A stretch of 64,000 bases of DNA from Rhizophagus irregularis (lineage: Eukaryota), in assembly GCF_026210795.1 (NCBI RefSeq), contig NC_089435.1, positions 186,001 through 250,000 of the forward strand, given 5' to 3'. A model generated the notes under the pieces. The model made no database searches, was not told the origin of the DNA, and was given only the letters and a program-made list of their open reading frames with translations. Positions 5,421 to 55,228 of the stretch are shown in pieces; position 1 is the first letter of the stretch, and each line of letters opens with the position of its first letter. The translations under genes and the position numbers were made by a program.

Positions 5421-6722
5421 ATGTGGAATCTGCTTTTATTATTAATAACAATTGCTCTTTCTTCTTTGATACATCCCGTAAATTCAATATGTATGGATCA
5501 TGATCCAATAAATTTAAACAAGTTATTAATAGTAGATTGCGCACCTAAAGTACCTAAAGCACCTAAACAACAAAATAATAATAATAATAGTTTTCAATTA
5601 AATGATGAAAAATTATTTCAAATAAATTTTAATTGTCAAATAACAGATAATAATATGTGTAATAAAGTTGAAGACATATTTAATATGGCAGGGGATATTG
5701 TCACCTATGCTCTTGCGCTCAATACACCTATAATCGTTAATGCTAAATTTTACGTTATGGATCCAAAAGAATTAGGAGGGGCAACACCAACTAGATATAT
5801 TTCATTATTAGATGAAGATGATCAAGTAGAAAGATTTTATCCACAAGCATTGGTAAAACAATTACAATTAACATCACCTGTAACATTCTCATATTCAGAA
5901 TCAGATATAACAGCAGAATTTAATTCTTTGATAAATTGGCATTTTCCTGATGATAAAGGATCAATAAAAAAGGATCAATATGACATTTTATATACGATTC
6001 TACATGAAATTATTCATGGTTTAGGTTTTATATCAAGTTGGAGGGGTTTGGGTTTAGATACACCAGAAAAAGAATTAACTCCTTTTCTTGTAACTGGTTC
6101 AGATGATACTTCAATTACTTCATATGATATAGCAGAATCTCCATTTATTTTTCATGGATTTCGCGAAACTATATTTGATAAATTTATCATAATTAAGGAT
6201 AGTAATGGTATACAAACGAGATTATCATCATTCGCCAATGAATTAAATCAATTTAATACTAGTGCAAGTCAATTTATTGATTTTTATGATCAATTACAAA
6301 ATACTCCACAATATGAGGCAGCTAAAGATGTATTAATTTTTAGTACGACAAAAAATGATTTTATATTCATGCCTAAAGGTAGTAATAGTATTCCAGATGA
6401 TGGAATTATATTAGAAACGAAGATAAAACCTTATCAAGCGGGTTCTTCTATATCTCATGTAGATTCTATTATTTATAATATTGGTAATCCGGATTTTTTA
6501 ATGAGACGTGAAAGTATTTTAGGTGAATCACTTAATGATTTAGTTATTAAAAGTGGTAATATTACTGGAAGTGCTATCGGTCCAAAGTTACTTAATATCT
6601 TAAGTTCAATCGGATATAATTTAGCCGATAATCCGATTAAATCTTCTGCAACAAAACAATCGATAGTAGATTTTAATTTAATAATAACTTTATGCATAAT
6701 ATTTATAACATTGAACATCTAA
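5421..6722 (+). CDS. Secreted zinc metalloprotease-like paralog 1 (intronless, GPI-like C-terminal tail)
   Basis: 433 aa ORF with signal peptide, HEIIHGLGF (6003-6029), GSSISHVD...DFLM, GPKL...IGY, and hydrophobic C-terminus after SSA. Confidence 0.9.
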   Translation: MWNLLLLLITIALSSLIHPVNSICMDHDPINLNKLLIVDCAPKVPKAPKQQNNNNNSFQLNDEKLFQINFNCQITDNNMCNKVEDIFNMAGDIVTYALALNTPIIVNAKFYVMDPKELGGATPTRYISLLDEDDQVERFYPQALVKQLQLTSPVTFSYSESDITAEFNSLINWHFPDDKGSIKKDQYDILYTILHEIIHGLGFISSWRGLGLDTPEKELTPFLVTGSDDTSITSYDIAESPFIFHGFRETIFDKFIIIKDSNGIQTRLSSFANELNQFNTSASQFIDFYDQLQNTPQYEAAKDVLIFSTTKNDFIFMPKGSNSIPDDGIILETKIKPYQAGSSISHVDSIIYNIGNPDFLMRRESILGESLNDLVIKSGNITGSAIGPKLLNILSSIGYNLADNPIKSSATKQSIVDFNLIITLCIIFITLNI

Positions 6723-6906: not shown

Positions 6907-8428
6907 TTATAATAAATGAATTTTTATTAAACTCAATAAATTAATAATAAATATTACTTTGAAATTTGTTTTATAAGTTTTAATACCACCAGATTTTTCG
7001 TTACTTCCTTTACCATTATTTGTACTTGAGTCACCCGGTTCTATTGGTATACTCATAGTTGGATTAAAATCATTTCCATTTCCAATTATCGTGACACTTG
7101 GCTTATATGGGTTAGTATATTCTGGTGTGGAATATCTTATATGAATATTAAAAAAAAAAGAAAAAAAGATATTAGAAAAACGTGTAATAATTTTAATATC
7201 AACCCCCGTATTATCATGATTAAAATGCTTACCCCAATGTTTCCAATACTAGTTTTAGATTAGGTCCTATAATAGCATTATAACCTGCATTATTATTTCC
7301 ATTATGTGAAGTAATCAAACTATCTAAATTAGCTCCATGATCCGCTAAAAATTTCATAAGGAAATCACTCGTATTATTATATTTTTTAAAATCCACATGA
7401 CTTATGCTCGAACCTGTTTGATAAGGTTGTAATCTAGTCTCCAAAACAACTGATTCAATGGCTTTTGTAGTCCCTCTAGGTAAAAATCCCAATACATTCG
7501 GTGTAATAGAATAACTCATCATTTTTTCTGCTATTTTATATTGAGGTGAATTACGAAATTTTGTTACAAAATCTATATCATTTTCAAAAATTATACCAAC
7601 TTCTTTTTGAAATTTATTTATATCTCCTGTTAATGCTGATATTTTTTTTCCTGTTGGTATATGAATTAAATATCTATCAAATGCTGATTCTAAAAATCCA
7701 TTAAATTTAAATTGTTCTGATGGATCTTTACCAGTTATTAAAATTTCTGGTGTTAATGCTTTAGGTTGATCATTCATATAATCTTCCCATCCTGACGCAA
7801 ATCCTAATCCATGTACAATCTCATGTAAAACTACATATAAAAAATCCTGTTGATTACGTGTTATTGGAGGATCTCCTTCAAACCAAAAACTTGTTCCTCC
7901 AGCATTAAACAATGCCATTATATCGAAAGGTCCATATGAAGGATGTTGTTTAAATTGAAATTGTTTTACTAATGCTTGTGGATATAATCTAACTAATCCA
8001 TCATCATCTTGTAATGGAATCGTTCTAGCTGGTGTCGCTCCTCCTAATATTATAAGTCCATCTCCCTTTGGACATTCTCCTAACGAAGTACAAAAATCTA
8101 AGAAACTTGCATTTAATTGTATTGGTGTATTAATTAATAAAACAGATGATAATATTTTACCAGCTGTTTCAAATGCATTTTTCGCTTTATTACAAAGAAT
8201 ATCGTTTTTTATTCCACAATTGAATGTTAATACAATCATATTTTCATTATTTGGTTGTGTTAATTGTGATAATGAATCAAATTTAACGGAATTTTGTTGT
8301 AATGGGCATTCTACTGGTATCTTGTATGATTTTTTTAAAGGATTTGGGTAATCAAAACATTGTGATAATGTACCGAGAACATTTAAGGTTATTATTAATA
8401 AAATTATCATTAATAAACATATTTTCAT
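6907..8428 (-). CDS. Secreted zinc metalloprotease-like paralog 2 (2 exons, GPI-like tail)
   Basis: ATG at 8428 (MKICLL...). HEIVHGLGF, SSISHVD...DFLM. Intron after LG (GG|GTAAG); exon 2 (7135-6907) reads YSTPEYTNPYKP...KVIFIINLLSLIKIHLL*. Confidence 0.88.
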
Positions 8429-8910: not shown

Positions 8911-10259
8911 TCACACGTTTATCGAATATATTGGAGAAGGTTTATATGGAAGTGGATGATCTCTCGTAGCATAACTAATAAATAATAATAATAATAATAA
9001 TAATAAATTTTTTAACAAATTAAAGTTATATATGTACAATATATATGTACAAATCAATGTATTTACCCTAAAGTTTCCAAGATTAATTTTAATTGAGGAC
9101 CGATTGGACCACCAGAATAATCTCCACTTTTATCAAGTTGATATTGTATCGACCTTCCAGCAACAACACCAGGTCTCATTAAAAAATCTTTGGTTCTCGT
9201 GTATGTAGAAAATTGTAAATGATTTAAACTTGATCTTGAAAAAGGATTCAAACTTGTTTCTAACGTAATATTTTTTTTATCATGTGATTTAAATATAAGA
9301 GTACTCGGTTTACAAGCCAATTTATACAAATATTGAGCCACATAATATTCTGAAGATTCTTTAAAATAATTATATATTTCTTCATAAATTGAAAAGGTTT
9401 TTTTGGGAGAAAATTTTTGTAATTGAGGAGTGATTACATCTGACAGTCTCTCATTAGTAGATTTAAAATATATGTATTTATCAAAAACTTTTTCAATAAA
9501 TCCATTAAATATATAAAGATTTTCAATAGAATTATTATCATTTTTAATTATTAAATTATTTGATAAAATTTTTGGTGTTAAAGCTTTATGAATTTTATCA
9601 TTCCAGGCTGAAAGAAATCCTAATCCATGAATAAATTCATGAAGAACTACGTAAAGAAAATCAATTTGATTTTTTCCAATCGTTGAATTATCTTCAATAA
9701 ACCAATAATCTATTTTGGAATTAAATCTGGCTCTAATATCAAACTCTCCATATTCAGGATGTTGTTTGAAACGAAATTGTTTAACTAATGATTGTGGATA
9801 TAATCGATCAACTCCATCATCATCCCTTAATATTATTGATCTTGCAGGTCCCGCTGCTCCCATTATTCTACGAAATGGCGTATTTTTACATCGTTCTTTA
9901 TCCGTTTCACATAAATCTATGAATGTTGCATTCACATTTATTTTTGTATTAAGAATTAATGTCTCTGATATTATTTGTCCAGCTATTTCAAATGTTTTTT
10001 TGGCTTTATCACAAAGTACCAAATCCTTATTATCGCAATGAAATGTTATATTAAACATATTTTCATCATAATTTATAGGAGCTTTTTGAGAGGTTTGAGG
10101 GTCTTGTTGTGATGAATTGTTAGTATATGAACATGGTATTCGTTCTACGTGAAAATAATTAAACGGATCAGGATGTTCGTAACAAATTGCTTTTACAAAG
10201 TCAAATAAAATTATCACAAAAAATAGAAAGGAGAGATTGATATGTAAATGAAAGTTCAT
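8911..10259 (-). CDS. Secreted zinc metalloprotease-like paralog 3 (2 exons, no hydrophobic tail, likely soluble)
   Basis: Signal peptide, HEFIHGLGF, SSLNH...DFLM. Short exon 2 (8974-8911) reads YATRDHPLPYKPSPIYSINV*. Confidence 0.88.
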
Positions 10260-12328: not shown

Positions 12329-13817
12329 ATGATGAATTCATTAAAATTCATAATATCTTTGATTTTTTTTGTCGTAATAATAATTTTTCCTAATAAAACT
12401 ATTTCAATAAAATGTTTTAATCATCCAGATTTTTTCGAATTTTATAAAAGAAATCCTATAAATTATGAATTTATTAAAAAAAGATCATTAAAAACAAAAA
12501 GAACGTCATTTAATAATAATAATAATAATTTTCAAATAGAATTCACATGTGGAATTGATGATAAAATACTTTGTGATAAAGCTAGAAAAGGGTTTGAATC
12601 TGCTGGTCAGATAATTACTTCAACTATATCATTTAGGAACCCTGTAATAGTTAATGCATCATTTTATAATTTTTGTAAAACCGATAATCAATGTTCTTCT
12701 AGTAATGATAATAATATGGTAGCTGGTAAGTAAATTAAAAATAAAAAATAAAAATAAAAATAAAAACAAATACTAATAAATATTAATAACTATTGTAGGT
12801 GGAGCAAATCCAACAAAAACGATAGCATTAACAGATAATGATGGAATTGTAAGATATTACCCACAAGCTTTGGTTAAACAATTACCATTTGAACGTTATC
12901 CAGATTTTGAACCTTTTGATATCTCAGCAAAATTTAATTCTGAAGTAAATTATTGGTTTGAAGGAGATAAATTACCAATAAAATCTGATCAAACGGATTT
13001 CATATTAATAATTTTACATGAATTTATTCATGGATTAGGATTTGTTTCTAGTTGGAATGATTTTTTTAATTTTGCAAATCCACAAGGATTGACTCCAGTT
13101 CCAAGCGCCGATAATTTGAATTCGGGAATGTCATTTAACGGCTTCATTGAAAATATATTTGATAAATATTTGATATTTTTACCTTCAGGGGAATATGTAT
13201 CAAATGTTGCCGCTAAAATTAATACAATAGTAAATGAAAAAGGAAAATTTTACCAAACTCCAGAGAATTTTATTACGACATTTAAATCTTCTTCTCAATA
13301 TCAACAATCGGAAATGATGTTAAAAGCTGCTACAACATCTTTTTCTTTAGGATTTTTACCTAATAACACGAATAATTTAAGCGAAGCAATTATACTTGAG
13401 ACCACATTAAATCCTTTTAGAACGGGATCAAGTCTCGGTCATTTTGATCTTAAAACTTATATGAATACCTCCGATTTTTTGATGACTTATATACAAGATC
13501 CAGGAATGACACTTGGTGATTATATGTCAATTAGTGGTAATTATACTGGTGGTCCAATTGGTCCAAAATTAAGACAAATTTTGGGGACAATGGGGTAAAT
13601 ATACGATTATATTCGTTATTATATATATATTATCATTATTATTATCAACGTTAATACTTTTTAATATTGTAGATATGTTATAAAAGATGTTTATATAAGT
13701 CCATATACACCCAGTGTATCTCTCAATAAATTTTCAACGGCCGCAACAATAAGTAGTAATATTGGTTTTATGATATTTATTTTTACAACAATCATAATTT
13801 TTAATATTTTAATATAA
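12329..13817 (+). CDS. Secreted zinc metalloprotease-like paralog 4 (3 exons, GPI-like tail)
   Basis: Exons 12329-12725, 12799-13594 and 13673-13817 join in frame at canonical GT-AG sites. HEFIHGLGF, SSLGH...DFLM, Kex2-like KKR/KR sites in the pro-region. Confidence 0.88.
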
Positions 13818-14496: not shown

Positions 14497-16332
14497 ATGA
14501 AGGCTTTAACATTAACATTGTTGTTGTTATTATCTGTCACATGTTTAACATTGATCAAAGAAATAACAGCTCAATGTTATGATTATACGAATGCATTGGA
14601 TATAAGTGCAAGAACTCCAATAACATGTAATATTGTTGATAATATTAAAGAACCACCGCCACCAATAGCTTCACCACAGCCACCATCGTCATCACCGCCA
14701 CCATCATCATCGCCATCACTATTACCAACAGCTTCAATATCGCCACCAGTTTCATCACCTTTACCATCAGCTTCAATATCACCACCACCAACTTCACCAC
14801 TACCATCAGCTTCTGCTAACTTAACAACAAATAATTTTATAATTAATTATAAATGTGAAATTGAGACAAATCAAGAATTATGTACAAAGGCACAAAAGTC
14901 TATAGAAAAAGTTTGCGAATTGTTAAAATCAAATCTAAATTTAATTACAAATATTAAAGTTGACGTTACTTTAAGAAATTTATGTCCTACAGATGCTAAA
15001 CAACCATGTAATGAGTTAGGAGGAGCAACATTTGCCAGAACCATGGAATTATTAGATGATGATAATGTTATTAGAGAATATCCAACAACACTTGTAAAAC
15101 AATTTGATTGTGAACGACATTATGAATTTGGTGATGTTGATATACGCGCTATATTTAATGGAGGGAATGTTACTTCTTTATGGTTTGAAGGAGATCCACA
15201 AATTACAAAAGATCAAAAAGATTTTAGAATAATAGTTTTAAAAGAATTTATTAAAGCGTTGGGTGTACAAACAAGTTTAATAGAACAACCAATTTTTTTA
15301 AACGTAACTCCAAAAGTTTTAACACCACAATTAACTTTAACAGATAATGGTGGTGGTTTAGAATTTATGGGATTTAAAGAATACGCTTTTGATAAATATT
15401 TGGTATTTCGTGGTAAACAAGTTCAACCGGTTAATGAAAATATTAAATCACTTAATGATTTTGCTAAAGTACCAGATAATAAATTTAATGATCAACAAGA
15501 ATTTGTAACAAAATTCGTTCAATCACAACAAATCGGTGTAGCTCAAAATATGGCGAATCTTTCTGTTACTCAATTTACTTTAGGTTTTCAGCCAAGAGGA
15601 TCAAAATCCGATGATGATATTATTATTCTAGAAACTCTTTTAAACCCTTACCAAAATGGTGTTAATATTAATAATTTTGATGCTAGCGTATATGCTGCAA
15701 CAGATGACTTTTTGATGATTTCACCTATCACAAGTGGCAAAACTCTTGAAGATTCTATGGGGAAATTTCCAAGTCCACTTGGTCCTAAATTAATCTCCTT
15801 GTTGGAAACTTTAGGGTAAGTTAATATTTATCAAAACTCTTGCACGACAAACATTAAATAAATTAAATAAACTTATTTTTTTTTTTTGTAATAAAAAAAA
15901 ATTAGATATCCTACCAAACGATTGCCAAATAATAATTTCAAAGTTTGTAACATTCCTTCGCCTCCTTCATCACCTTCTCCATCAAAGACTGTAACGACTG
16001 CCGTAACGACTTCTGTTACGACTCAAATTACAACAACAGTTCCTGTGGTTGTTACAACGACAATTCAACAAGATAATACTAGTGTTGTTTCAACTCAAAC
16101 TCAAAATGTTGTAACAAAAGTTGAGTCCGTGTCTCAAAGTGTTGTTACAACAGTCGTAGTTGTAGACGCTCCACAGTCACAGCCAATTCCTTCCCCGACA
16201 AATTCCGATGACCCTTTTCAAGGAGGAATTTATTCTAGTGGCTCTTCATATAAAAATCAAAATAATTTTAGTTCAATAATATTTATTATTCTAATTGTAT
16301 GTATAATAGGAAGTTTTCAAAGTATTATATAG
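14497..16332 (+). CDS. Catalytically dead metalloprotease paralog 5 with Pro/Ser-rich insert, Thr/Val/Ser-rich stalk and GPI-like tail
   Basis: Exons 14497-15815 and 15906-16332 are in frame. HExxH is replaced by KEFIKALGV (15241-15267) and SHxD by NNFD; DFLM and GPKL...LGY are retained. Confidence 0.88.
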
Positions 16333-16854
16333 ATCGATCATTTTATTAGATATTCATTTTACATTCTACTTACTTAATATGTATTAATTTTTAAAAAGAT
16401 ATTTAATTTTGGTAATTTTTAATCCGGAGATTGAATTTCAAAACCTTAGAAAATTCTTATAAAAATAAAGATGCAAATGTATTATAATACGTAACATGTG
16501 GCGGGACAATAATTTTTTAAAATTTCCTATTTTAATTCGTCACAATTATAAACAAAATTACAAAAAAATTACTGAATAAAGAAATATAATGAATTTACGC
16601 TAAACCACAACTATTCATGTCTTGTCTCCAAAAAAAGGTAGTTAAAAATTCATTCATTATGATATTTCTATAATAGATTGTATCATCAAAGATTTCAACT
16701 TCGAAATTCTATGAAAAGAATTTTTCGTATTTATGACATTAATTGACTTTTCATGTGATAAAATTCAAGTATAAAAACTCGAGAAAAAAATTCTCTTGAA
16801 ATTTTAATTTTGCTTTTTGAATTTTGAAATAATTTAAAGTATCTATTATTCAAA

Positions 16855-17459
16855 ATGAACAAAATTATTGGTATCACCCTTTTTCTTTTCTTCATTTTTT
16901 CATCTTATATCTCGGCAGTTCCAAATCCTATGATAAAACGTCAGGGGGACGGTAGCGATCCATTAAGTGGTTTCAAACCTTGTAATGGAACTACTTATCC
17001 AATTACTTTTACGAAGTTCAGTTTCGACCCAAATCCGATCGTAATAGGACAGACCTTAACTACGACAGTGGCCGGTACAAGCAATGAAGAAATAAAAGAA
17101 GGCGCAATTCAAACAACATCAGCATTTTCTAACGGACAATTAGTATTTAACCAACAAACTGATTATTGTAAAGTGTCAGTTGAACCAACCGGAGCAAAAT
17201 GTCCACTTCCACCTGGAGATTTTGATGCTTCTATAACATCCGTTCCCGCGGCTAGTTCCAATGATCCTTCAGGCACTACTTTATCATTTGATGTTGTATT
17301 TAAAAGTAAGAATAACTTATAAATTTATATTTATTCGATTTAAGATAAATGAATTGATTTTAATATATATATATATATTTTTCTTTAGTTATTAATCCTG
17401 ATAATACCGAATTGACATGCATGGAAGGACCATTTAGTATTACTTTCCCTCCAAAATAA
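16855..17459 (+). CDS. Secreted ML-domain (MD-2/NPC2-like) lipid-binding protein
   Basis: Signal peptide plus KR site; GFKPC...FDPNPIVIGQ...DYC...CPLPPG. Exon 2 (17389-17459) supplies the last Cys (LTCMEG). Confidence 0.85.
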
Positions 17460-18588: not shown

Positions 18589-20010
18589 ATGAAACCATCA
18601 TCATTTTCATTTATTCTTTCACTCTTGCTATTTATTAGCATCGAATCTATGATTCAAGTAAATGCTATGTGTTGGGAACATAGCAATCCACTTAAACCAT
18701 GGGAGAAAACGAAGTCAACATTTTGTGGTACGCAAGATAAGCCAAAAAACAAATTAACAATCGATAAAGGAAATTCGCTAGCTTCCTTTTTAGCACCAGC
18801 TGATGCATTTCAATTTGTTTTCTCTTGTGGAGTTCCAGATCAAGTTTTATGTAGTAAAGCAGAAAATTCATTTAAAGAAGCAGGATTAATTATAGCAAAT
18901 TTAGTTAATTTCACTACACCTTTAAGAGTTAATGCTACTTTTACAGATTTTTGTCGAGACCTTGGTGAATGTGATGGTAAAATTCTTGGAGCAGCAAGTG
19001 CAGCGAGAACAATTCCTTTACAAGATGATGATAATAAAATTAGACAATATCCACAAGCATTAGCAAAACAATTTTTATTACAACCAGAACCTCAATGGGG
19101 ACCTTTTGATATTCAAGCTTTTTTTAACGCTGAAGCTGATTTGTTTTTTGATGGTGATAATACACCAATTACACCTACTCAATTTGATTTTCGTTATATT
19201 ATTTTACATGAACTTATTCATGGTCTTGGTTTTGCTTCCGGTTGGAATAGTTATTTCAGTAGTGATAATGGTAATAATGCTGTTGCTTTGACTCCTGATC
19301 CAGGTTTTCTCGAGCAATTAACAGGTTTAAATGATCCTGTGACTTTTACTGGATTTGAAGAAACTGCATTTGATAAATATATGGTAAATGCAAAAATAAA
19401 AACTCAATCTCCGAAAAGAATGACTGATTATGCGGATAAAATAAATAGTTTTGCTAAAATTGGTACTAAATTCCCAAGTGTACAGGCTTTATTAACATCA
19501 TTTCAAAGATCTCAATCATTTTTAACTTCTAATGATTTAATCATTGATAGTCAAACTCCAAAAACTTTTGCTTTTCAACCTAAAAGTGCTAAAACCACAG
19601 ATGATTTAATTTTTTTGGAAACGAATATAAATCCTTTCCAACAAGGATCATCTATTTCTCACGTAGATATTGTATCTTTTAATAATAATAGTGATTTCTT
19701 GGAAGTTTTTAATGCTAAACGTGGTCAAAACTTGGATCAAATTCTTGCTAGTGTTGGTGGAACTTACCCTATTGGTCCAAAATTACAATCCGTTTTAGAA
19801 ACTTTAGGGTATACTACGGCAAACAATCCAAATCCATATAAACCAAGTTTACCTAATAGTCCAAAATTGAATGCTGCTCCCCCACCTCCATTACCTGTCG
19901 CTAATCAAAGTGGTAAAAATAAAATGTCAACTTCCACCGCTACATCTTTAAAATTTAGATTTAATATTTTACCTGTATTTATAATTGTAGTCGTTGTTTT
20001 ATTATTATAG
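18589..20010 (+). CDS. Secreted zinc metalloprotease-like paralog 6 (intronless, Pro-rich linker, GPI-like tail)
   Basis: 473 aa ORF. HELIHGLGF and GSSISHVD are present, but DFLE replaces DFLM. Hydrophobic C-terminus. Confidence 0.9.
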   Translation: MKPSSFSFILSLLLFISIESMIQVNAMCWEHSNPLKPWEKTKSTFCGTQDKPKNKLTIDKGNSLASFLAPADAFQFVFSCGVPDQVLCSKAENSFKEAGLIIANLVNFTTPLRVNATFTDFCRDLGECDGKILGAASAARTIPLQDDDNKIRQYPQALAKQFLLQPEPQWGPFDIQAFFNAEADLFFDGDNTPITPTQFDFRYIILHELIHGLGFASGWNSYFSSDNGNNAVALTPDPGFLEQLTGLNDPVTFTGFEETAFDKYMVNAKIKTQSPKRMTDYADKINSFAKIGTKFPSVQALLTSFQRSQSFLTSNDLIIDSQTPKTFAFQPKSAKTTDDLIFLETNINPFQQGSSISHVDIVSFNNNSDFLEVFNAKRGQNLDQILASVGGTYPIGPKLQSVLETLGYTTANNPNPYKPSLPNSPKLNAAPPPPLPVANQSGKNKMSTSTATSLKFRFNILPVFIIVVVVLLL

Positions 20011-20871: not shown

Positions 20872-21600
20872 TCATTCTTGTTTTTCTTCTTCTTGTTGTT
20901 GTTGTTGTTGATCATCTCTCTCCATTTCCATATACTCTTGTTGCATAAAATGATGTTGTTGACCAAGTGTAGGATAACCAACACTTATTTCAACTGTTGA
21001 AGGAGTAGATGTTCCATACATAGTTTGAGAACGTTGAGGAGGACGATGTGTACCCGCAGCCGGAGTAAATAAATCTTCATGTTCTTCTTTTTCATCTTCT
21101 GGTCCAATTATATCATCATCATGTTGAAATTTTTTAGAACTTCTTTCTCTTTCCCTTTCCCTTGAATCTCTCTTACTTTTTCTAAGTGAAGTGCGAGATC
21201 CACTTAATTGTAGAGGTTTTAAGCCACGAGATGATTCAGCTAATCTTTTACGACGATTGCAAAAAAATAACGCAACAACTAAACAACAAACAACTACAAT
21301 AGCAACTACAACTACAATTGCTATAGCTAATGGTGAACTTAATTTATTAGCTGTTGTTTTTTCACTAGAATTTGTTGTATCTAAATTACTCAGTGTGGAA
21401 TTTAGAAATAATGGTGGTACTGGTTCTCCAGACCAGTCACACTTTTCACTTATACATTTTCCATTTGAAATACAATCACTATCAATTGTACAATAAAATG
21501 TACATTTATTATCTAAACATATTTGACCAGCGATTGAATAATTACAATCTTGGTTTGCTTGACAAGCTTGATCTGCATTAACGGGGGAAGGTTCAGTCAT
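20872..21600 (-). CDS. Single-pass membrane protein with N-terminal tandem 4-Cys modules and charged cytoplasmic tail
   Basis: 242 aa ORF: two Cx5C-xn-Cx4C repeats, S/T linker, hydrophobic segment followed by RRKR, then R/E- and Q-rich tail. No N-terminal signal peptide. Confidence 0.82.
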   Translation of the reverse strand: MTEPSPVNADQACQANQDCNYSIAGQICLDNKCTFYCTIDSDCISNGKCISEKCDWSGEPVPPLFLNSTLSNLDTTNSSEKTTANKLSSPLAIAIVVVVAIVVVCCLVVALFFCNRRKRLAESSRGLKPLQLSGSRTSLRKSKRDSRERERERSSKKFQHDDDIIGPEDEKEEHEDLFTPAAGTHRPPQRSQTMYGTSTPSTVEISVGYPTLGQQHHFMQQEYMEMERDDQQQQQQEEEKQE

Positions 21601-22685
21601 GGAAGCGAAGAATTTTTGTTTTATAAAACAACATTTAATTATCCAAAACTACTTCTCTAAATGAAAGAATAAAGATCGTCTATTTTTTTTTCTTATCGGA
21701 GAAATTTGTTTTTTTTTAAAAAAAAAATTTAAATAGAAAGACAAATTTAACTAAGTTCAAAATCTTTTAAAAATTTTTTTCTTTTAGGCTTGAAATTTTT
21801 TTTTTTTTTTTTTTTTTTTTCCTTTGTCTGTTATTTTTACTTAATAAGCCCCATGGTTCTTCCGGAAGATCAGGTGCATGATGGGCTTAGATACTTGAGT
21901 AAAATATCATTATTTTCCGTAAGTCAAAAAAACGAATTTAGTATTACTTCGTTTTATATAAAGATAAATAAATAAACAAATAAATGTGGCTGTGAAGTTT
22001 AAACAGCCACAATGAAGCAATGCCGGAATTATCTTTATTTGGAGATATTTTAAGCCTTACGTGATCATAAATACGTGATCATATATACGTAAATCATTCA
22101 CATTTTTCCGAATTTTTAAAGCCGCAAACCGAAATTTCAAATCAAAATCCTTGTGTAACTTGTAATCTTTGCCTTAAAACCTTGACTAACCTATATATAG
22201 TATGTATAAATATAGGAAGATTAAAAAATTAATTCACGTAGTTAGGTCAAGTTTTCATCTATTTTGTTTTTCTGGTTTTTTTTTCTGGTTTTTTTTTCCT
22301 AGCTGGATTTGGTAAATTTTTGAATTGAACGTAAATTGAAATTGCGTAATCTTAAAATTTAAGGTTATCAATATATAGGTTACACCGCATTGAAAATGTT
22401 TAATCATTAAAAGAAATATCATTATTTACAAAATAAAATACATAACTCATATAGAAATGTAATAAAGCAAATAAAATTATCAATGAACAATAAACACGAA
22501 TAAAACAAAATAATTATTATGCTATTATTTATAATAAAAAAAAACCAAATCAAGAAAAAGGTTATTCGCAAAAAAAAATCTCCCTGCCGTCTTTAATATT
22601 GTCAATACTCGAATCTCATACAACCAATAAAAAAAAAAAAGAACTCAGGATTCAGGATTCAGTAATAAGATTTAAATTAATATCA

Positions 22686-25139: not shown

Positions 25140-26567
25140 ATGAACATTCATTTACTGCTAATAATATTAATAACGTTCTTACTAATTTTTATAAATGATG
25201 TTTCCTCCGATCATGCATTATGTTGGGATTTGATTCCAGAACCGAATAATTTGTCACGTAAAATTCAGAGACCATGTCCAATGGTTAAAAATAGGAAAAG
25301 AGCAGCATCAACAGCAGCACCGGCAAATAATTCGGATATGTTTACCGTATCATTTACTTGTTCGGTTGAAAATGAAAACCCAGAATTATGTCGAAAAGTT
25401 AAGAATGCGTTTTATACAGCTGGACAAATTATTTCTTCCAGCATAAAACTTAATACACCATTGATAGTTAATGCTTCATTGGTAAATTTTTGTACAACAA
25501 GAGGTATATGCCTAGATGGACCAACTGGTCGTTTAACTTTAGGTGGTGCTGGACCTTCAAGACTTATTCCTATTGAAAAAGATCAACGAGTATATCCTCA
25601 ATCCATCTTAAAACAATTAAACAAAGAAAATCACCCAGAATATTCTCCATATGATATTAATGCTCTATTTAATAGTGAAGGAAATTATTGGTTTGAAGAA
25701 GATGGTCCAATAAAGCTAAATCAATCTGATTTTTTATTTGTAATTTTACATGAATTAATTCATGGATTAGGGTTTTGCAGTGGTTGGGATGATCATAGTG
25801 ATATGTTAGGCATACAGAATATAATAACTCCAACACCTCTTTTTTTAACAACCATTACAGGACAGGTCATTTTTGGTGGATTTAGAGAGTTCATATTTGA
25901 TAAATTTATGGTATTATTATCTGATGGCACTCGCATTTCCAATCTTACTGAGGAGTTGAATAAATTCTCTGGTGTTGGAACTACTCATAATTCAATGGAT
26001 GATTTTTTAAATTACTTTATGAATACTTTTCCTTCATCTCCTGAATACCAAATTGTTCAAAAAATGATGAATATATCTACTACACCTAAATCTCTGGGGA
26101 TTTTACCATTAAATAAAACTGATATTAAAGATGCTTTTATTTTAGAAACTTCACTTTCACCTTTTTTGCCCAAGTCAAGTATCAGCCATTGTGATTATAT
26201 AACTTATACCAAATCTTCTGATTTCTTAATGAGATATTTACAAGATCCTGGTATTTCTTTAAAAAGATCTATTCGTTTAGGTGGAAATTATGTAAATGGT
26301 CCTATTGGGCCTAAACTAGCTGAAACATTATCTTTAATAGGGTAAGTATTTGTTTAAATTATTATAAAAGAATATTTAATGTTTTTTAAAAATAAATATT
26401 TTTTTTTTAGATATCAAATTCAAAATTTACCAAATACATTTAAACCAAATCCTAATGAAATAGTAGTAGATGATGAAATTAATATTGCATCATCTTTAAA
26501 AGCTTTTAACTTAAATTATTTAATTATAAAATTTTTATTTTTTTATTATATAATGATGGACTTTTAA
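25140..26567 (+). CDS. Secreted zinc metalloprotease-like paralog 7 (2 exons, GPI-like tail)
   Basis: Exons 25140-26341 and 26411-26567. Signal peptide, RKR site, HELIHGLGF, SSISHCD...DFLM. Confidence 0.9.
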
Positions 26568-28762: not shown

Positions 28763-31745
28763 AAATAATTACTAAAGTACTAAATAATGAAAATTTAACT
28801 CCATGCGTTGTAATTGATATGTTAGATGGTAAAATTCAGCGGTGCAATTCTAAAAAAAAATTGAGACGACTTTGGCAAATGATTGGAACTTGGCAAATTG
28901 ACGATGAAGAAGTTAAAGCAAAAAATTTTTTAATTGAAGATTTAGGTATTTGTTATTCGCATTTTTTATATGATCAAAATCAATTGCATTCATCAAATTT
29001 AAAACAAACTAAAGATTATATGGAAAGTATTATTCATAGACGCAGATGTTTATTTTGTAATAAAAATAAAATTTTTTTTAGTCATGGTTCTAATTGTGAA
29101 AAACACTTATATAAAGTTATAGGTAAAAATATTCAGGTACCTTGTATAGAGCAAATGAAATGTGGTGCATTGCAAATATACCATTCTTTTATTTGTAATT
29201 CCAACAAATTCAAGTAAACATGCACGATATATATGTATGAATTGTTATGAAGAAAAGGATGGGCATATTTATCAATGTGTTGGATAAGGTATAAAAAAAG
29301 ATCCAAATTGTGATAACCTGTTACATCATAAAAATGATACCAAAAAGGCATTAGAAGTAATTGGATATTGGATTTTTAATATTGCTAATTCTGATAATTT
29401 AGCATTTCAAGAAAAAATTTTAGCACATTTAGCTCCTATTTTATGTATTATTAATATTCAAGAAAAATCTGAAACTACATCATCAATGCTACTATCAGTA
29501 CAAAATATAAAAAATGAAGTACCTTCTTTATTTATAATTCTTATTATTCTTATTTTAGTAAAATTTAATTACAATTTTGATAAAAAATTAAATTCTAAGA
29601 ATCTTACATCAAAACATTTTTTCGAATTTGGAGAAGCATTAGCACATTCAATAATACTCGTGAAAAATGAATTAAAAATTCACAAAAAATTACTTGAATC
29701 ACCTACTTCTATAAAAGAATATCGTTTTATATTTCCTTTATATTTAGTACAATTTTATGATGGTCTTTTAAAAACTTTATATGAAACAAAAAAAAAATTA
29801 TAGATAGACAAAGAAAATATCGTAAAAAACCATTAAAATTTTTAAATTATGAAAAAATTACTAAACAAACCACATTTTTTATTTCAATAATTTTAAACAT
29901 TGCATTTAAAGGATGGAAAATTTGGTTACCTTGAACAATGGCAAGTCTTTGCCGAAAACTAAAACTTTTGTCATCATTGCAGGGAATTTTAGAAGTTGTA
30001 AATATTACAAGCCACTTTCAAAGACATAAACAAAATTTGGAAAAAATTCGTGCTCTCTTAGTAGATCCAACTGATCGAATTTGCTATGAAAAGAATATTT
30101 GGAATCTTGGTATTATTGATAATGTGGATTTTAAAGAAACTACATTTGGTTATGGAAACATTTTTGACGCTATTAGAGAAAATGCTACATTACGGATACT
30201 CTTTCAATACCAACTACCTAATGAATTATCTGAAATTATTGAAATACAAGACAAAAATAAGCAAAAACTTTTTGGGCAAAATAATTTTTCACAACAAACA
30301 TTCAATATTTTTAATTCAGTTTTTGAACAATTACTTACGTTTAATGAAAATCTCACTCCTAATTATCGTTCAGATTTTAATGAAAATGATATACGTAATC
30401 AAATTATGACACATTTTGAAGGAAGTTTTAATCTTCCGCCTCCCAATGTTATAATTCTTGATGCTGAAAATCCACCATCAAGTGATTCCGCCGTGCATAA
30501 ATATCTAGAAATGTATAAAAATGAAATTGGTATGGAAAATAATGAATATATTAATGTAGTTGCAGATGAAGCTATTTTTAGACGAGGTATTAGTTATTGT
30601 AAAACAAATCAAAAAACAAAAATGATCCTTGGACAATGGCATACCAATAAGGATATGATGATGGCATTAATTACAATTTTTTCTGGTTACGGAATATTCA
30701 ATATGGCAGGAATATTAGGTGTATGATTTCTAGATAAATTAAAGAAAGGTGTAAATTTCAGAGCAACTTCAAGAATATTGGAATTGATTTGGATTTCCAT
30801 AGAATAGCAATTCATATATATGTAAAAAAGAAAAAACAGACATTAGATAATATTTTAAAAGAAGAAAATAATTGTGTAAAAGTTTGGTATTTATATTTTC
30901 AATGGGCTAGTTATTGGCGTGCACATTGGTTTGGTATTAGATGGGAATATTTGATTTACAACATGAAAGTTTAAAAGCTTTTTCACCTTTATTTTCCATT
31001 GCCGGTAAATCAAATTATGCTAGATCTGTAAGACTGTAACATATCATATATATTGCATAGAAAATAATCCTCTACTTCGTAAAATGCTTCGTACAGCACC
31101 ATCCATTAATTTAACAAGTCCTGGACATTTTTTTGCATATGACGAAGCATTAGAAACATTTGGAGTAAAATTTGTAAAACAAAATGTAATAAGAATTCCT
31201 GCAGATAGGGAAGAGTTGAAATTAAGAATAAAAGCTACTCAACTAGAAAAGGAACGAACAGAAATGCTGATTTGTGATTACATTGGAGATTCTGTTCAAA
31301 GTTTCTGACCACGTAATGTTCAAACTCAAAAGGAAAAGATTTGGGAGCTTGCACACTTATTGATAAATGCTTTTGAATCTTTAAATCCTCTTAAAAATTC
31401 AGTATTTGAATTCTGTAACAATTTAAATGATGATAGAGTTAACCAATTAATTATTGCGTATGATATTGGAATTAAGAGATTACAAACAATAGCAAATCAA
31501 GAAATTTTTTTAACAGAAAGTTATACAACTATTGGAAGAAGAGCAAGAAATATCACACGGGTTACAGTTGCTGATATTACTAAAATGAAAAAAGAAAAAA
31601 AATAGAAATAAGAGAAAAAGAAAAAGAAAAAAGGAAAAAAGGAGAGGGAGAGGGAGAGGAAGGGGGAAAGGGAGAGGGAGAGGTAGGAGGGGGAGGGAAG
31701 AGGGAGGGGAAGGGGAAGGGGAAAGAAGAAGAAACATGACTATGA
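28763..31745 (+). mobile_element. Degraded Academ/DUF6589-like transposase relic
   Basis: Collinear broken ORFs with IIDNVDF, VADEAIF, LGQWH and FSIAGKSNYARSV, Cys/His clusters at the N-terminus and a GA-rich (RG-encoding) 3' tract. Many stops and frameshifts. Confidence 0.55.
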
Positions 31746-53189: not shown

Positions 53190-55228
53190 TTATTTTGCAC
53201 TAATACTAATAGTAATAACTTCGCCATTCTGAATATTTGCACCTTTAATAGGACTTACTAAAATAGAATTTCCATTTTTTTTCCATTCAACTTTACCATT
53301 CGGGGAAATATTTATAATAAACCCATTTGGGTAATGATATATTTCTTGAATTTTTATAACAGTAGGTTTTTTTATAGATGGATTGATTTCATAAACTAAT
53401 TTAAATTCTTCATCAAATTCCATACTAAGAGTATTTCCTGAAACTGCTTCGGCATAAGTTCTAGAAAATATTTTTGCAACATCTGGCCTTACTTGTCCAG
53501 TATTGGGATCAATTAAACCATCACCAGGTAATTGTCTTGTTAATGGAAAAAAATCCTTGTATTGCCATCCTATCCACGATTGTAAGTATTTATCAGCTGC
53601 TTGTATAATTGTAAGCAACCCTGGAAGATTTTTCCCACTATCATAAGCTGCTTCAAATTCTGTTAGCTAATATAAGGTGGAAACCAAATTTAAAAAAATC
53701 ATTACTAAATTACGCAAAGAAACTATTGAGTTTAATTTACCATTGATGCACCACCAGTTCGTCCAATATCTTCTAAATGAACTTGAAAATCCATATTAGG
53801 TGGCTTTATTCTAACTTCTTTATAATAATGATAACCAAATGAACTTCTATTTTGATAAATAGGACCTCCTGGTACATGATCAAAGTTATTACCGAACAAA
53901 TCCCACGTTACTCCTGTAAAGAATACAATTCCATTATTATCAACTTTGCGCAATTCGGCACTAATTGCATCCCAAAATGGACCTAAATTTGTACGTGTAT
54001 TTACTTTGAAATAAATTAATGTTGGTTAGCATTTTAAATAAGGAAGATATTATTGAATTCTTTGGAACAAGTCTTACCACTTGGTAACCAAAGACCAAGA
54101 TTACTATAGGTATCTCCGGGCCAAGGCTCATTAAGTAAATCATAACCAAGAAGATTGTTACTATTCTTAAATATTGATGCAATTTTTGCCCATTGAGCTG
54201 CAAATGCGTCTCTTAAACCATCATAATTATCATATAATCTCTGCCATGCCACATTTACTGCACGTGAGAGATACAATAATGCCCAATTCACTCTTCCACA
54301 AGTTACTTTATCTGGAAGTCCTGTTATAGGATCATATATTGCTGCTGTTAGTCCTATAGGTATCGGAAACGGCCATGTACCTTCTGTTCGAACTGCCCAT
54401 CTTGGAAACTACAAATTTAAGGGTTTAACCAAATGAAAAGATCGTTTCTTCGTATGCATATTAATTACTTACACCTTCTCCACAAAACTTATCGCTCATT
54501 ACATCCTAAATTAATAACCAATAAAAAAAAATTTATTAAATTTTTTTTTAAAAAAATTAAAAAGACAAAAGGGTTTGTTTACCTGATGAGAATCTAATAG
54601 CACGTAAATTCCATACAAATTACACTTGTCTACAATACTTTTTATGATTTTTAAATAAGTTTCATTATATTTTCCTCGTACTGGTTCAACGCCAGCCCAT
54701 AGAACTCCAAGTCTAATAACATTCATATTAACACTGGCCAAAATCTAGTCGCAGAGTATGTTTTTGTTTAGGAAGTGATCAAACTGTTTTGGACATAAGC
54801 ATAAGCATGTACGGTATTAAAAAAAGGTCAAACCTTCATATCTTCTTCGGTGAACGAAGTTACAGGATCAAATGCATCAATTCTAGGATAGTATGGGAAT
54901 CCTTTATAAACCTTTCAACAAAACCAAATAAGTATCGAAAAAAAATATTCTAAACATTTTCTTTGATGAAGAATATACTAGTATATTGTTTTATATAACT
55001 TTTTTTCTTTGGATATCATAATGGTGAAGGGTCTTTACATACAACGTTCAGTCCACGAAAGAATCTCTGTCTACCGAATTCATCAATATAATGATCATTT
55101 TTAATTCCGATAATCTTTGGCGTGGGTTCCGATGTAGCACGTGTATCTAAGTTTGGAATAGCGATCACATGATATATGTATATTACAGAAAGTAATAAAA
55201 CTAAATGCACTTTTCGTCTAATTATCAT
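53190..55228 (-). CDS. Secreted GH5 endoglycoceramidase-like glycosidase (7 exons)
   Basis: Exons join in frame: DEFGRQRFFRGLNVVYK, NVIRLGVLWAGVEP, LLDSHQD, CGEGFPRW, GYDLLNEPW (acid/base Glu), YHYY, LTEF (nucleophile), FSRTYAEAVSG. Hydrophobic N-terminus. Confidence 0.88.

What the first reader, a model, noticed from the sequence alone, without database searches (positions are those of the whole stretch)
14497..16332. Intact pseudo-protease within the array: all three zinc ligands replaced
HEFIH has become KEFIK (15241-15255) and SHxD has become NNFD (~15673), while the Glu, Met-turn, Cys pattern, splice sites and ORF remain. Only this copy has an extensin-like Ser/Pro insert and a long Thr/Val/Ser stalk before the anchor. 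Loss of exactly the metal ligands in an otherwise intact gene suggests selection for a non-catalytic role, such as an inhibitor decoy, substrate-binding receptor or adhesin projected from the wall.
Basis: partly seen in the sequence, partly recalled or inferred. Interest (0 to 1): 0.75.

Follow-up and report, generated by a model that had tools for sequence, protein, structure and literature searches.

The report
Conserved dead GP63-like mycorrhizal surface protease
A mycorrhizal fungus and its relatives keep an intact, spliced copy of a predicted zinc-protease gene whose three zinc-binding histidines are all replaced, so it likely works as a non-cutting binding protein on the cell surface; its unnamed family is predicted to share the fold of the Leishmania surface protease GP63.

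Summary
The two-exon gene (14497-15815, 15906-16332; 581 aa) reads KEFIKA and N393 where six array paralogs read HExxHG and His. Contigs of 3 of 3 RNA-like runs skip the intron; the DNA-like run does not. All 7 orthologs found (named ones: Rhizophagus, Glomus, Funneliformis) also lack all three His. They form one clade with a long stem (0.97), then diverge no faster than intact paralogs (72% identity to Funneliformis versus 55-76%), so this is no decaying pseudogene. Corrections: only the first Lys is invariant; the second His became K/G/T/N; the Glu became Lys in two Funneliformis species; 21 of 92 family-conserved columns were replaced, not only the ligands; the Ser/Pro insert is not extensin-like and is short in Funneliformis. 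Added here: AlphaFold models of the dead copy and an intact paralog match leishmanolysin (GP63, M8) best (Z 12.4, 12.3), so this 'Sequence orphan' family is likely a GP63-like metzincin family. Three more distant members show independent site loss, two with Arg at the first ligand. Best reading: an anchored, non-catalytic surface binder; ligand unknown; a plant-facing role is untested. New variant of a known kind (pseudometallopeptidases).

The parts
14497..15815 (+). Exon 1 of the dead protease gene (signal peptide, N-terminal segment, Ser/Pro insert, whole metzincin-like domain)
15816..15905 (+). 90-nt GT..AG intron at the position shared with three paralogs (after LETLG-type end)
   Evidence: skipped in contigs of X2, X7, X10, not X15
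15906..16332 (+). Exon 2: Cys/Pro linker, Thr/Val/Ser stalk, hydrophobic tail, stop
   Evidence: ortholog P0001
14497..14571 (+). Likely signal peptide (inferred from hydrophobic N-terminus; no predictor run)
   Evidence: sequence; alignment with paralogs
14572..14640 (+). N-terminal segment with Cys27 and Cys44, predicted folded onto the domain (pLDDT 94-95)
14650..14820 (+). Ser/Pro/Thr-rich insert, predicted disordered (pLDDT under 50), 14-90 aa across orthologs, no invariant column
14833..15815 (+). Metzincin-like domain, best structural match leishmanolysin 1lml (Z 12.4, rmsd 2.8, 180 aligned)
15109..15111 (+). Cys205, gained and invariant in the dead clade (8 of 8; 0% in 123 other members)
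15241..15258 (+). KEFIKA in place of HExxHG: Lys249 (invariant), Glu250, Lys253 (K/G/T/N in orthologs), Ala254 (invariant)
15673..15675 (+). Asn393 in place of the third zinc His (Asn in 7 of 8, Ser in 1)
15715..15717 (+). Met407, Met-turn, kept in 8 of 8
15955..16221 (+). Thr/Ser/Val-rich stalk (34 S+T and 19 V of 89 aa), likely O-glycosylated (inferred)
16264..16329 (+). C-terminal hydrophobic segment with no charged tail, GPI-signal-like (inferred; no predictor run)
5421..6722 (+). Array paralog with intact HExxH...H
7232..8428 (-). Array paralog with intact site (first exon); its model also matches leishmanolysin best (Z 12.3)
9066..10259 (-). Array paralog with intact site (first exon)
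12329..13595 (+). Array paralog with intact site, upstream neighbour (adjacent also in G. cerebriforme and Funneliformis by accession order)
16855..17457 (+). ML (lipid-recognition) domain gene, downstream neighbour in Rhizophagus; end approximate
18589..20010 (+). Array paralog with intact His ligands but Glu at the Met-turn (FLEVF)
25140..26342 (+). Array paralog with intact site (first exon)

Best explanation
This is an intact, spliced gene, conserved in Rhizophagus, Glomus and Funneliformis, whose product has lost all three zinc ligands yet is predicted to keep a GP63-like metzincin fold, and it likely serves as an anchored cell-surface binding protein that holds a protein or peptide partner without cutting it. 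Shown: ligand loss, one origin on a long stem, then conservation like that of intact paralogs, splicing, synteny by accession order. Predicted: the fold. Inferred: secretion, GPI-type anchoring, an O-glycosylated stalk that lifts the domain, no zinc and no proteolysis, and the invariant Lys249 ammonium filling the place of the zinc cation so that the cleft stays folded. The ligand is unknown; whether it is fungal (wall, own proteins) or from the host is untested.
For: All three His replaced in 8 of 8 dead-clade rows versus intact in 125 of the other 128 rows. Glu250 is Lys in F. mosseae and F. caledonium, so the general base is dispensable. One clade, 100/100, stem 0.97, the longest inner branch of 39. 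Core identity to R. clarus 90.5%, G. cerebriforme 81%, Funneliformis 72%, against 77-84%, 69-83% and 55-76% for intact paralogs; invariant columns 62% against 46-63% in matched 5-row groups. Spliced contigs in three studies. AF2 pLDDT 90-97 over the domain (the alignment includes intact paralogs, which may bias towards their fold); best match 1lml Z 12.4. Longest stalk of the array and hydrophobic tail. His-to-Lys needs two base changes (genetic code) and is fixed; two unrelated members have Arg at the same position. Precedent: ADAM22/23 bind LGI1 through the surface of a dead metzincin domain (PMC11266112, section 2.3).
Against: No ligand, localisation, protein-level expression or activity data. 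No coordinates were returned, so the Lys-for-zinc geometry was not measured. The loop around the third ligand is the least held part of the old site (5 of 9 invariant against 23 of 27 in three intact groups, p=0.09), which does not point to a tightly specific cleft. The higher conservation of residues 175-242 (57 of 68) is matched by one intact paralog group (56 of 67) and its p=0.012 is one of seven post hoc tests. The insert and most of the stalk are short in Funneliformis, so they are not essential. dN/dS was not obtained.
Confidence: 0.5

Rival explanations
1. It is a regulator of its active paralogs: it pairs with, escorts or competes with one of the intact array proteases (as iRhoms or c-FLIP do for their active cousins).
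For: It stays between the same two intact paralogs by accession order in Rhizophagus and Funneliformis and beside the upstream one in G. cerebriforme; a gained invariant Cys205, left without Cys140 in 2 of 8 rows, could form an intermolecular bond; regulation of active homologs is a common pseudoenzyme role (PMC11266112, introduction).
Against: Tandem duplicates stay adjacent without any binding; its stalk is about twice as long as any paralog's, which would place the domains at different heights.
Confidence: 0.22
2. It is a decoy that soaks up host or microbial protease inhibitors or antibodies-like defence proteins aimed at the active paralogs.
For: Same predicted fold as the intact paralogs on a longer, exposed stalk; a root-colonising fungus meets host defence proteins (general knowledge).
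Against: Sequence evolves slowly in the crown, with no sign of an arms race at protein level; it is only 31-40% identical to the paralogs it would mimic and lacks the zinc site that many metzincin inhibitors engage (recalled).
Confidence: 0.1
3. It keeps a catalytic or metal-binding activity of another kind in a rebuilt site (Lys249, Glu250, Asn393).
For: Lys249 invariant, Asn393 in 7 of 8, Glu250 in 7 of 8, Met-turn kept; some supposed pseudoenzymes proved active (PMC11266112, introduction).
Against: Glu250 is Lys in two Funneliformis species; position 253 varies freely (K/G/T/N); the core has only one His (His208, outside the site, shared with the family) in 7 of 8 rows.
Confidence: 0.1
4. 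It is mainly a structural wall or matrix glycoprotein in which the folded domain is a stable cap with no specific partner.
For: Gain of Ser/Pro and Thr/Val/Ser tracts typical of fungal wall mannoproteins (typical pattern recalled); the fungal pseudopeptidase Ecm14 is secreted and has no detected activity (PMC7706225, abstract).
Against: 176 of 327 core columns are invariant across 8 rows, including many clade-specific surface-type residues, more than a passive cap should need.
Confidence: 0.06
5. It is a decaying pseudogene or an assembly artefact.
For: Long stem branch; dN/dS not measured.
Against: Open frame and the same replacements in 7 orthologs plus a fused F. caledonium model and fragments; no other letters against four runs; spliced; crown rate equal to intact paralogs.
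Confidence: 0.02

Closest known systems
Leishmanolysin / GP63 (MEROPS M8, PDB 1lml), including the inactive T. cruzi GP63 groups G9 and G10
   Same: Best structural match for both models (Z 12.4 and 12.3); long insertion between the helix Gly and the third ligand; Met-turn; signal peptide and anchor-like tail; multigene tandem arrays; expressed members lacking catalytic residues (PMC11957388, section 4).
   Different: 13-19% identity, no Pfam M8 hit; spacer about 135 aa against 62; only 1lml residues 101-366 align, so GP63's C-terminal domain has no counterpart; no HRCIHD-type propeptide; G9/G10 lose the Glu and keep the His, whereas this protein loses all three His.
ADAM11/22/23 and unc-71 pseudometalloproteases (M12)
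   Same: Membrane-tethered metzincin domain with zinc ligands lost and the Met-turn kept; ADAM22/23 act as receptors through the dead domain's surface (PMC11266112, Table 2 and section 2.3).
   Different: Animal, multidomain, with cytoplasmic tails; this protein is fungal, single-domain, with no cytoplasmic tail; structural similarity is only clan-level (ADAM22 3g5c Z 7.2 to the intact paralog).
Ecm14, fungal secreted pseudopeptidase (M14)
   Same: Conserved, secreted fungal metallopeptidase homolog without detected activity (PMC7706225, abstract).
   Different: Carboxypeptidase fold; keeps its zinc ligands and loses the general base (Table 2 of PMC11266112).
NCBIfam NF038122 (metallo_LGF) bacterial metalloproteases
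   Same: Six intact paralogs hit the model around HExxH (33-46 bits).
   Different: All below the 80-bit cut-off; the dead copy and its orthologs do not hit.

Membership tests
Active metzincin (clan MA(M)) | Three zinc ligands: HExxH plus a downstream His/Asp | tested here: not met
   K249, K253, N393; met in the six paralogs
Active metzincin (clan MA(M)) | General-base Glu | tested here: inconclusive
   Glu250 present here and in 7 of 8 rows, Lys in F. mosseae and F. caledonium
Active metzincin (clan MA(M)) | Met-turn | tested here: met
   Met407 in 8 of 8
Active metzincin (clan MA(M)) | Metzincin catalytic fold | tested here: met
   Predicted model matches 1lml Z 12.4 and MMPs Z 7.5-8.0; Foldseek alone gave no E under 0.001
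Active metzincin (clan MA(M)) | Zinc binding and proteolysis | not testable with these tools
   needs protein
Leishmanolysin family M8 | Match to Pfam Peptidase_M8 | tested here: not met
   No Pfam family for the target at E up to 1; M8 not among the 25 shown of 51 weak families for 110 intact members; Atlas M8 clusters only 0.84-0.86, leads
Leishmanolysin family M8 | Large insertion between the helix Gly and the third zinc ligand | tested here: met
   134-140 aa in the dead clade, median 135 in 127 other rows; 62 in Leishmania, 150-270 in T. cruzi G3
Leishmanolysin family M8 | C-terminal domain and Cys-switch propeptide (HRCIHD type) | tested here: not met
   Only 1lml 101-366 aligns; no such motif in the sequence
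Leishmanolysin family M8 | GPI anchor | tested here: inconclusive
   Hydrophobic C-terminus without charged tail; no GPI predictor available
NF038122 metalloprotease | Score above the 80-bit cut-off | tested here: not met
Extensin-like (definition recalled) | Repeated Ser-Pro4 with Tyr cross-link motifs | tested here: not met
   0 Ser-Pro4 and 0 Tyr in the target insert; at most one Ser-Pro4 in 2 orthologs
Pseudometallopeptidase (functional class) | Essential catalytic residues lost in a retained peptidase fold | tested here: met
Pseudometallopeptidase (functional class) | Expressed and conserved rather than a pseudogene | tested here: met
   spliced contigs; conservation; protein-level expression not seen
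Pseudometallopeptidase (functional class) | No measurable activity; a binding or regulatory role | not testable with these tools
   needs assays

The most novel reading that the evidence does not exclude
Arbuscular mycorrhizal fungi carry an unrecognised, expanded GP63-like surface protease coat, and the Glomeraceae turned one member into a stalked receptor or adhesin for a host-root protein by putting a lysine where the zinc sat, a basic-residue-for-metal swap that the family has made more than once (Lys here, Arg in two unrelated members).
Probability: 0.15. Interest if true: 0.78.

Novelty: new variant of a known kind. Interest (0 to 1): 0.52.

Why it matters
Surface proteins of mycorrhizal fungi are poorly known, and effector pipelines can drop this class by design (PMC12941956 excludes GPI-anchored proteins). 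Databases label the family 'Sequence orphan'. Placing it as GP63-like gives a testable function for dozens of genes, and a conserved dead member marks a surface interaction that selection has kept across three genera: a ready bait for pull-downs. Pseudoenzymes as such are common (about 10% of a family, PMC11266112), so the loss alone is not surprising.

Tried and rejected
dN/dS: not possible; no genome held, and two metagenome scans gave no ortholog DNA (0 loci; 14 loci, all 41% identity or less). Pfam: no family for the target. PDB by sequence: only chance-level hits. Foldseek: MMP-type hits, none under E 0.001. The wide structural search was obtained only for the intact paralog; for the dead copy only the second look at Foldseek's 1000 candidates. 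In the paralog's second look 1lml was not among the 50 rows shown, but it ranked first in the wide search. Complex prediction (homodimer via Cys205) was not available, so no verdict. No run was on record as RNA in the listing; RNA status rests on the spliced joint. Expression of the paralogs and relative levels were not examined. Plasmid tblastn with a paralog: no match. Region-wise conservation test: not robust. Literature: ten searches listed no paper on this family or gene; one search listed 25 of 35, subscription papers and bioRxiv supplements are not covered, and transcriptome supplements that I did not see may hold expression data. Earlier scan findings: nothing on this locus; one unrelated bacterial note. 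Rejected: extensin label, K-E-x-x-K as a conserved motif, pseudogene, assembly error, formal membership of M8 or NF038122.

Full report
Observation. The window is AT-rich fungal DNA whose proteins match named Rhizophagus irregularis records at 98-100%. It holds seven paralogs between 5421 and 26342. The gene in question has exon 1 at 14497-15815, a 90-nt GT..AG intron and exon 2 at 15906-16332, giving 581 aa. It reads KEFIKA at 15241-15258, Asn393 at 15673-15675 and Met407 at 15715-15717; the six others keep HExxHG and the third His. The stated observation is confirmed.

Is it real and expressed? Four runs were laid, 3 guessed as RNA (three studies, two organism labels) and 1 DNA-like. Contigs of all 3 RNA-like runs join across the intron, the DNA-like run does not, and no other letters were listed. 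So the odd codons are not an assembly error and a spliced transcript exists. One RNA-like run also held a thin unspliced piece. Contigs cannot give levels, tissue or strand.

Orthologs. A search with exon 1 returned 9 proteins, 7 of them at 62-96% identity: R. diaphanus, R. clarus, G. cerebriforme, F. mosseae and three unnamed; a second search from the F. mosseae core added no further ortholog (9 hits among 1579 candidates). A fused F. caledonium model holds another. In all 8 rows the first His is Lys, the second is K, G, T or N, the third is Asn (7) or Ser (1), the Met is kept, and Glu is kept in 7; of the other 128 rows 125 are intact and 3 are fragments or lack the third His (the family search listed 120 of 184 hits). 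A profile search of 1.84 billion representatives found 399 relatives, listed 150; the only strong hits were the ortholog cluster and ortholog-like fragments, one of which keeps Glu. All named orthologs are Glomeraceae. Accession order shows the gene between the same paralogs in R. diaphanus, F. mosseae and F. caledonium and beside the upstream one in G. cerebriforme.

Evolution. The 8 rows form one clade in a 135-row FastTree (rows under 260 aa and P0011 left out) and in a 42-row IQ-TREE (100/100, stem 0.97, longest inner branch; sister group unresolved). After the stem the rate is ordinary: core identity 90.5% to R. clarus, 81% to G. cerebriforme, 72% to Funneliformis, within or above the range of four intact paralogs; 62% invariant columns against 60, 46 and 63% in matched groups. 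This is the pattern of a burst of change followed by purifying selection, read at protein level only, since no ortholog DNA was found. The change went beyond the ligands: 21 of 92 family-conserved columns were replaced, 10 of 24 in site segments against 11 of 68 elsewhere (p=0.02), with a second cluster in the first helix, second strand and residues 197-209; of 40 columns conserved at 95%, 8 were replaced. Cys205 was gained and fixed. The Ser/Pro insert is 69-90 aa in Rhizophagus and G. cerebriforme but 14-21 aa in three rows, has no invariant column and no Tyr; the tail is 135-141 aa in Rhizophagus and Glomus and 106 in F. mosseae.

What the family is. Pfam gives nothing for the target and only sub-threshold zincin hints for relatives; NF038122 is hit below cut-off by the intact copies only; sources call the family 'Sequence orphan'. 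AlphaFold models are confident for the dead copy (pLDDT 87.5, domain blocks 90-98, insert disordered) and an intact paralog (93.2), with the same order of elements. Against 48,161 solved chains the paralog matches leishmanolysin best (Z 12.3, rmsd 3.4, 187 aligned), MMPs next (Z 10.5 and below); among 996 Foldseek candidates the dead copy matches leishmanolysin at Z 12.4 (rmsd 2.8, 180 aligned), well above MMPs at 8.0. The long insertion before the third ligand (about 135 aa) is the hallmark that PMC11957388 gives for leishmanolysins (passages and section 4 read; PMC6367770 passages). The family therefore likely works like GP63: signal peptide, anchored metzincin, tandem copies. It is not filed as M8: no Pfam match, no C-terminal GP63 domain, no Cys-switch motif. 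Named relatives span Glomeromycotina, other Mucoromycota and Zoopagomycota.

Other losses. Among 123 further representatives, 97 show the full His-Glu-His-His-Met set; three full-length or near full-length members outside the clade have a damaged site: P0290 (Arg, Glu, His, Tyr), P0262 (Arg, Glu, His, His) and P0274 (His, Asp, His, Asn). A 38-row quick tree needs 4 changes, at least 3 by starred branches. They are single unnamed sequences and unverified. They show that site loss recurs in this family, which makes the event less exceptional, while a basic residue at the first ligand in three separate lineages fits the inference that a charged side chain takes the zinc's place.

Mechanism. Most likely a secreted, GPI-type anchored protein whose stalk lifts a folded, metal-free metzincin domain that binds a partner without cleaving it (0.5), as the dead domains of ADAM22/23 do (PMC11266112: abstract, introduction and section 2.3 read). 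That it is a maintained non-protease I put near 0.88; what it binds is open. Rivals: regulator of an intact paralog (0.22), inhibitor decoy (0.1), rebuilt catalytic site (0.1), passive wall protein (0.06), pseudogene (0.02). Against my reading: no functional data, a relaxed third-ligand loop, and no robust conserved patch. Nothing here shows a plant-facing role.

Novelty. Pseudometallopeptidases are a known kind, in animals, trypanosome GP63 arrays and fungi (Ecm14; PMC7706225, abstract only). Ten literature searches listed nothing on this family in mycorrhizal fungi; PMC12941956 (passages and one supplement searched) filters out GPI-anchored proteins and held none of six locus-tag fragments. 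Coverage is partial. Verdict: real, conserved, new variant of a known kind; interest 0.52, carried as much by the GP63-like placement of an orphan family as by the dead copy.

Noticed in passing
window 18589-20010 (+): This paralog keeps all three His and the Glu but has Glu in place of the Met-turn Met (FLEVF); the same is seen in 13 stored proteins from Rhizophagus, Glomus and Funneliformis and in locus L002: a second conserved variant site in the array.
   Followed up: partly
window 16332-17060: Spliced contigs of X2 and X10 run through the 3' flank and carry about 460 more letters past 16600, which would reach into the ML gene if colinear; one R. clarus gene model (P0130) fuses the dead protease to the ML domain. 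Could be overlapping transcripts or a prediction artefact.
   Followed up: no
window 16855-17457 (+): Secreted ML (lipid-recognition) domain gene inside the array in Rhizophagus; no gene number lies between the flanking paralogs in F. mosseae.
   Followed up: partly
window 12329-12727 and 25140-25320 (+): Two intact paralogs have KR dibasic sites in the linker after the N-terminal segment, possible Kex2 processing sites; the dead copy has none there.
   Followed up: no
P0262, P0274, P0290: Unnamed distant family members with independently damaged zinc sites, two with Arg at the first ligand.
   Followed up: partly
window 20872-21648 (-): ORF with a Cys-rich repeat, a single membrane segment and a charged tail, like a small surface sensor; only sub-threshold Pfam hits.
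   Followed up: no
window 28765-30726 (+): Run of ORF fragments that look like a broken repeat or transposon-derived gene; not tested.
   Followed up: no
window 53190-54408 (-): Exons resembling a glycoside hydrolase of the endoglycoceramidase type (resemblance recalled, not tested).
   Followed up: no
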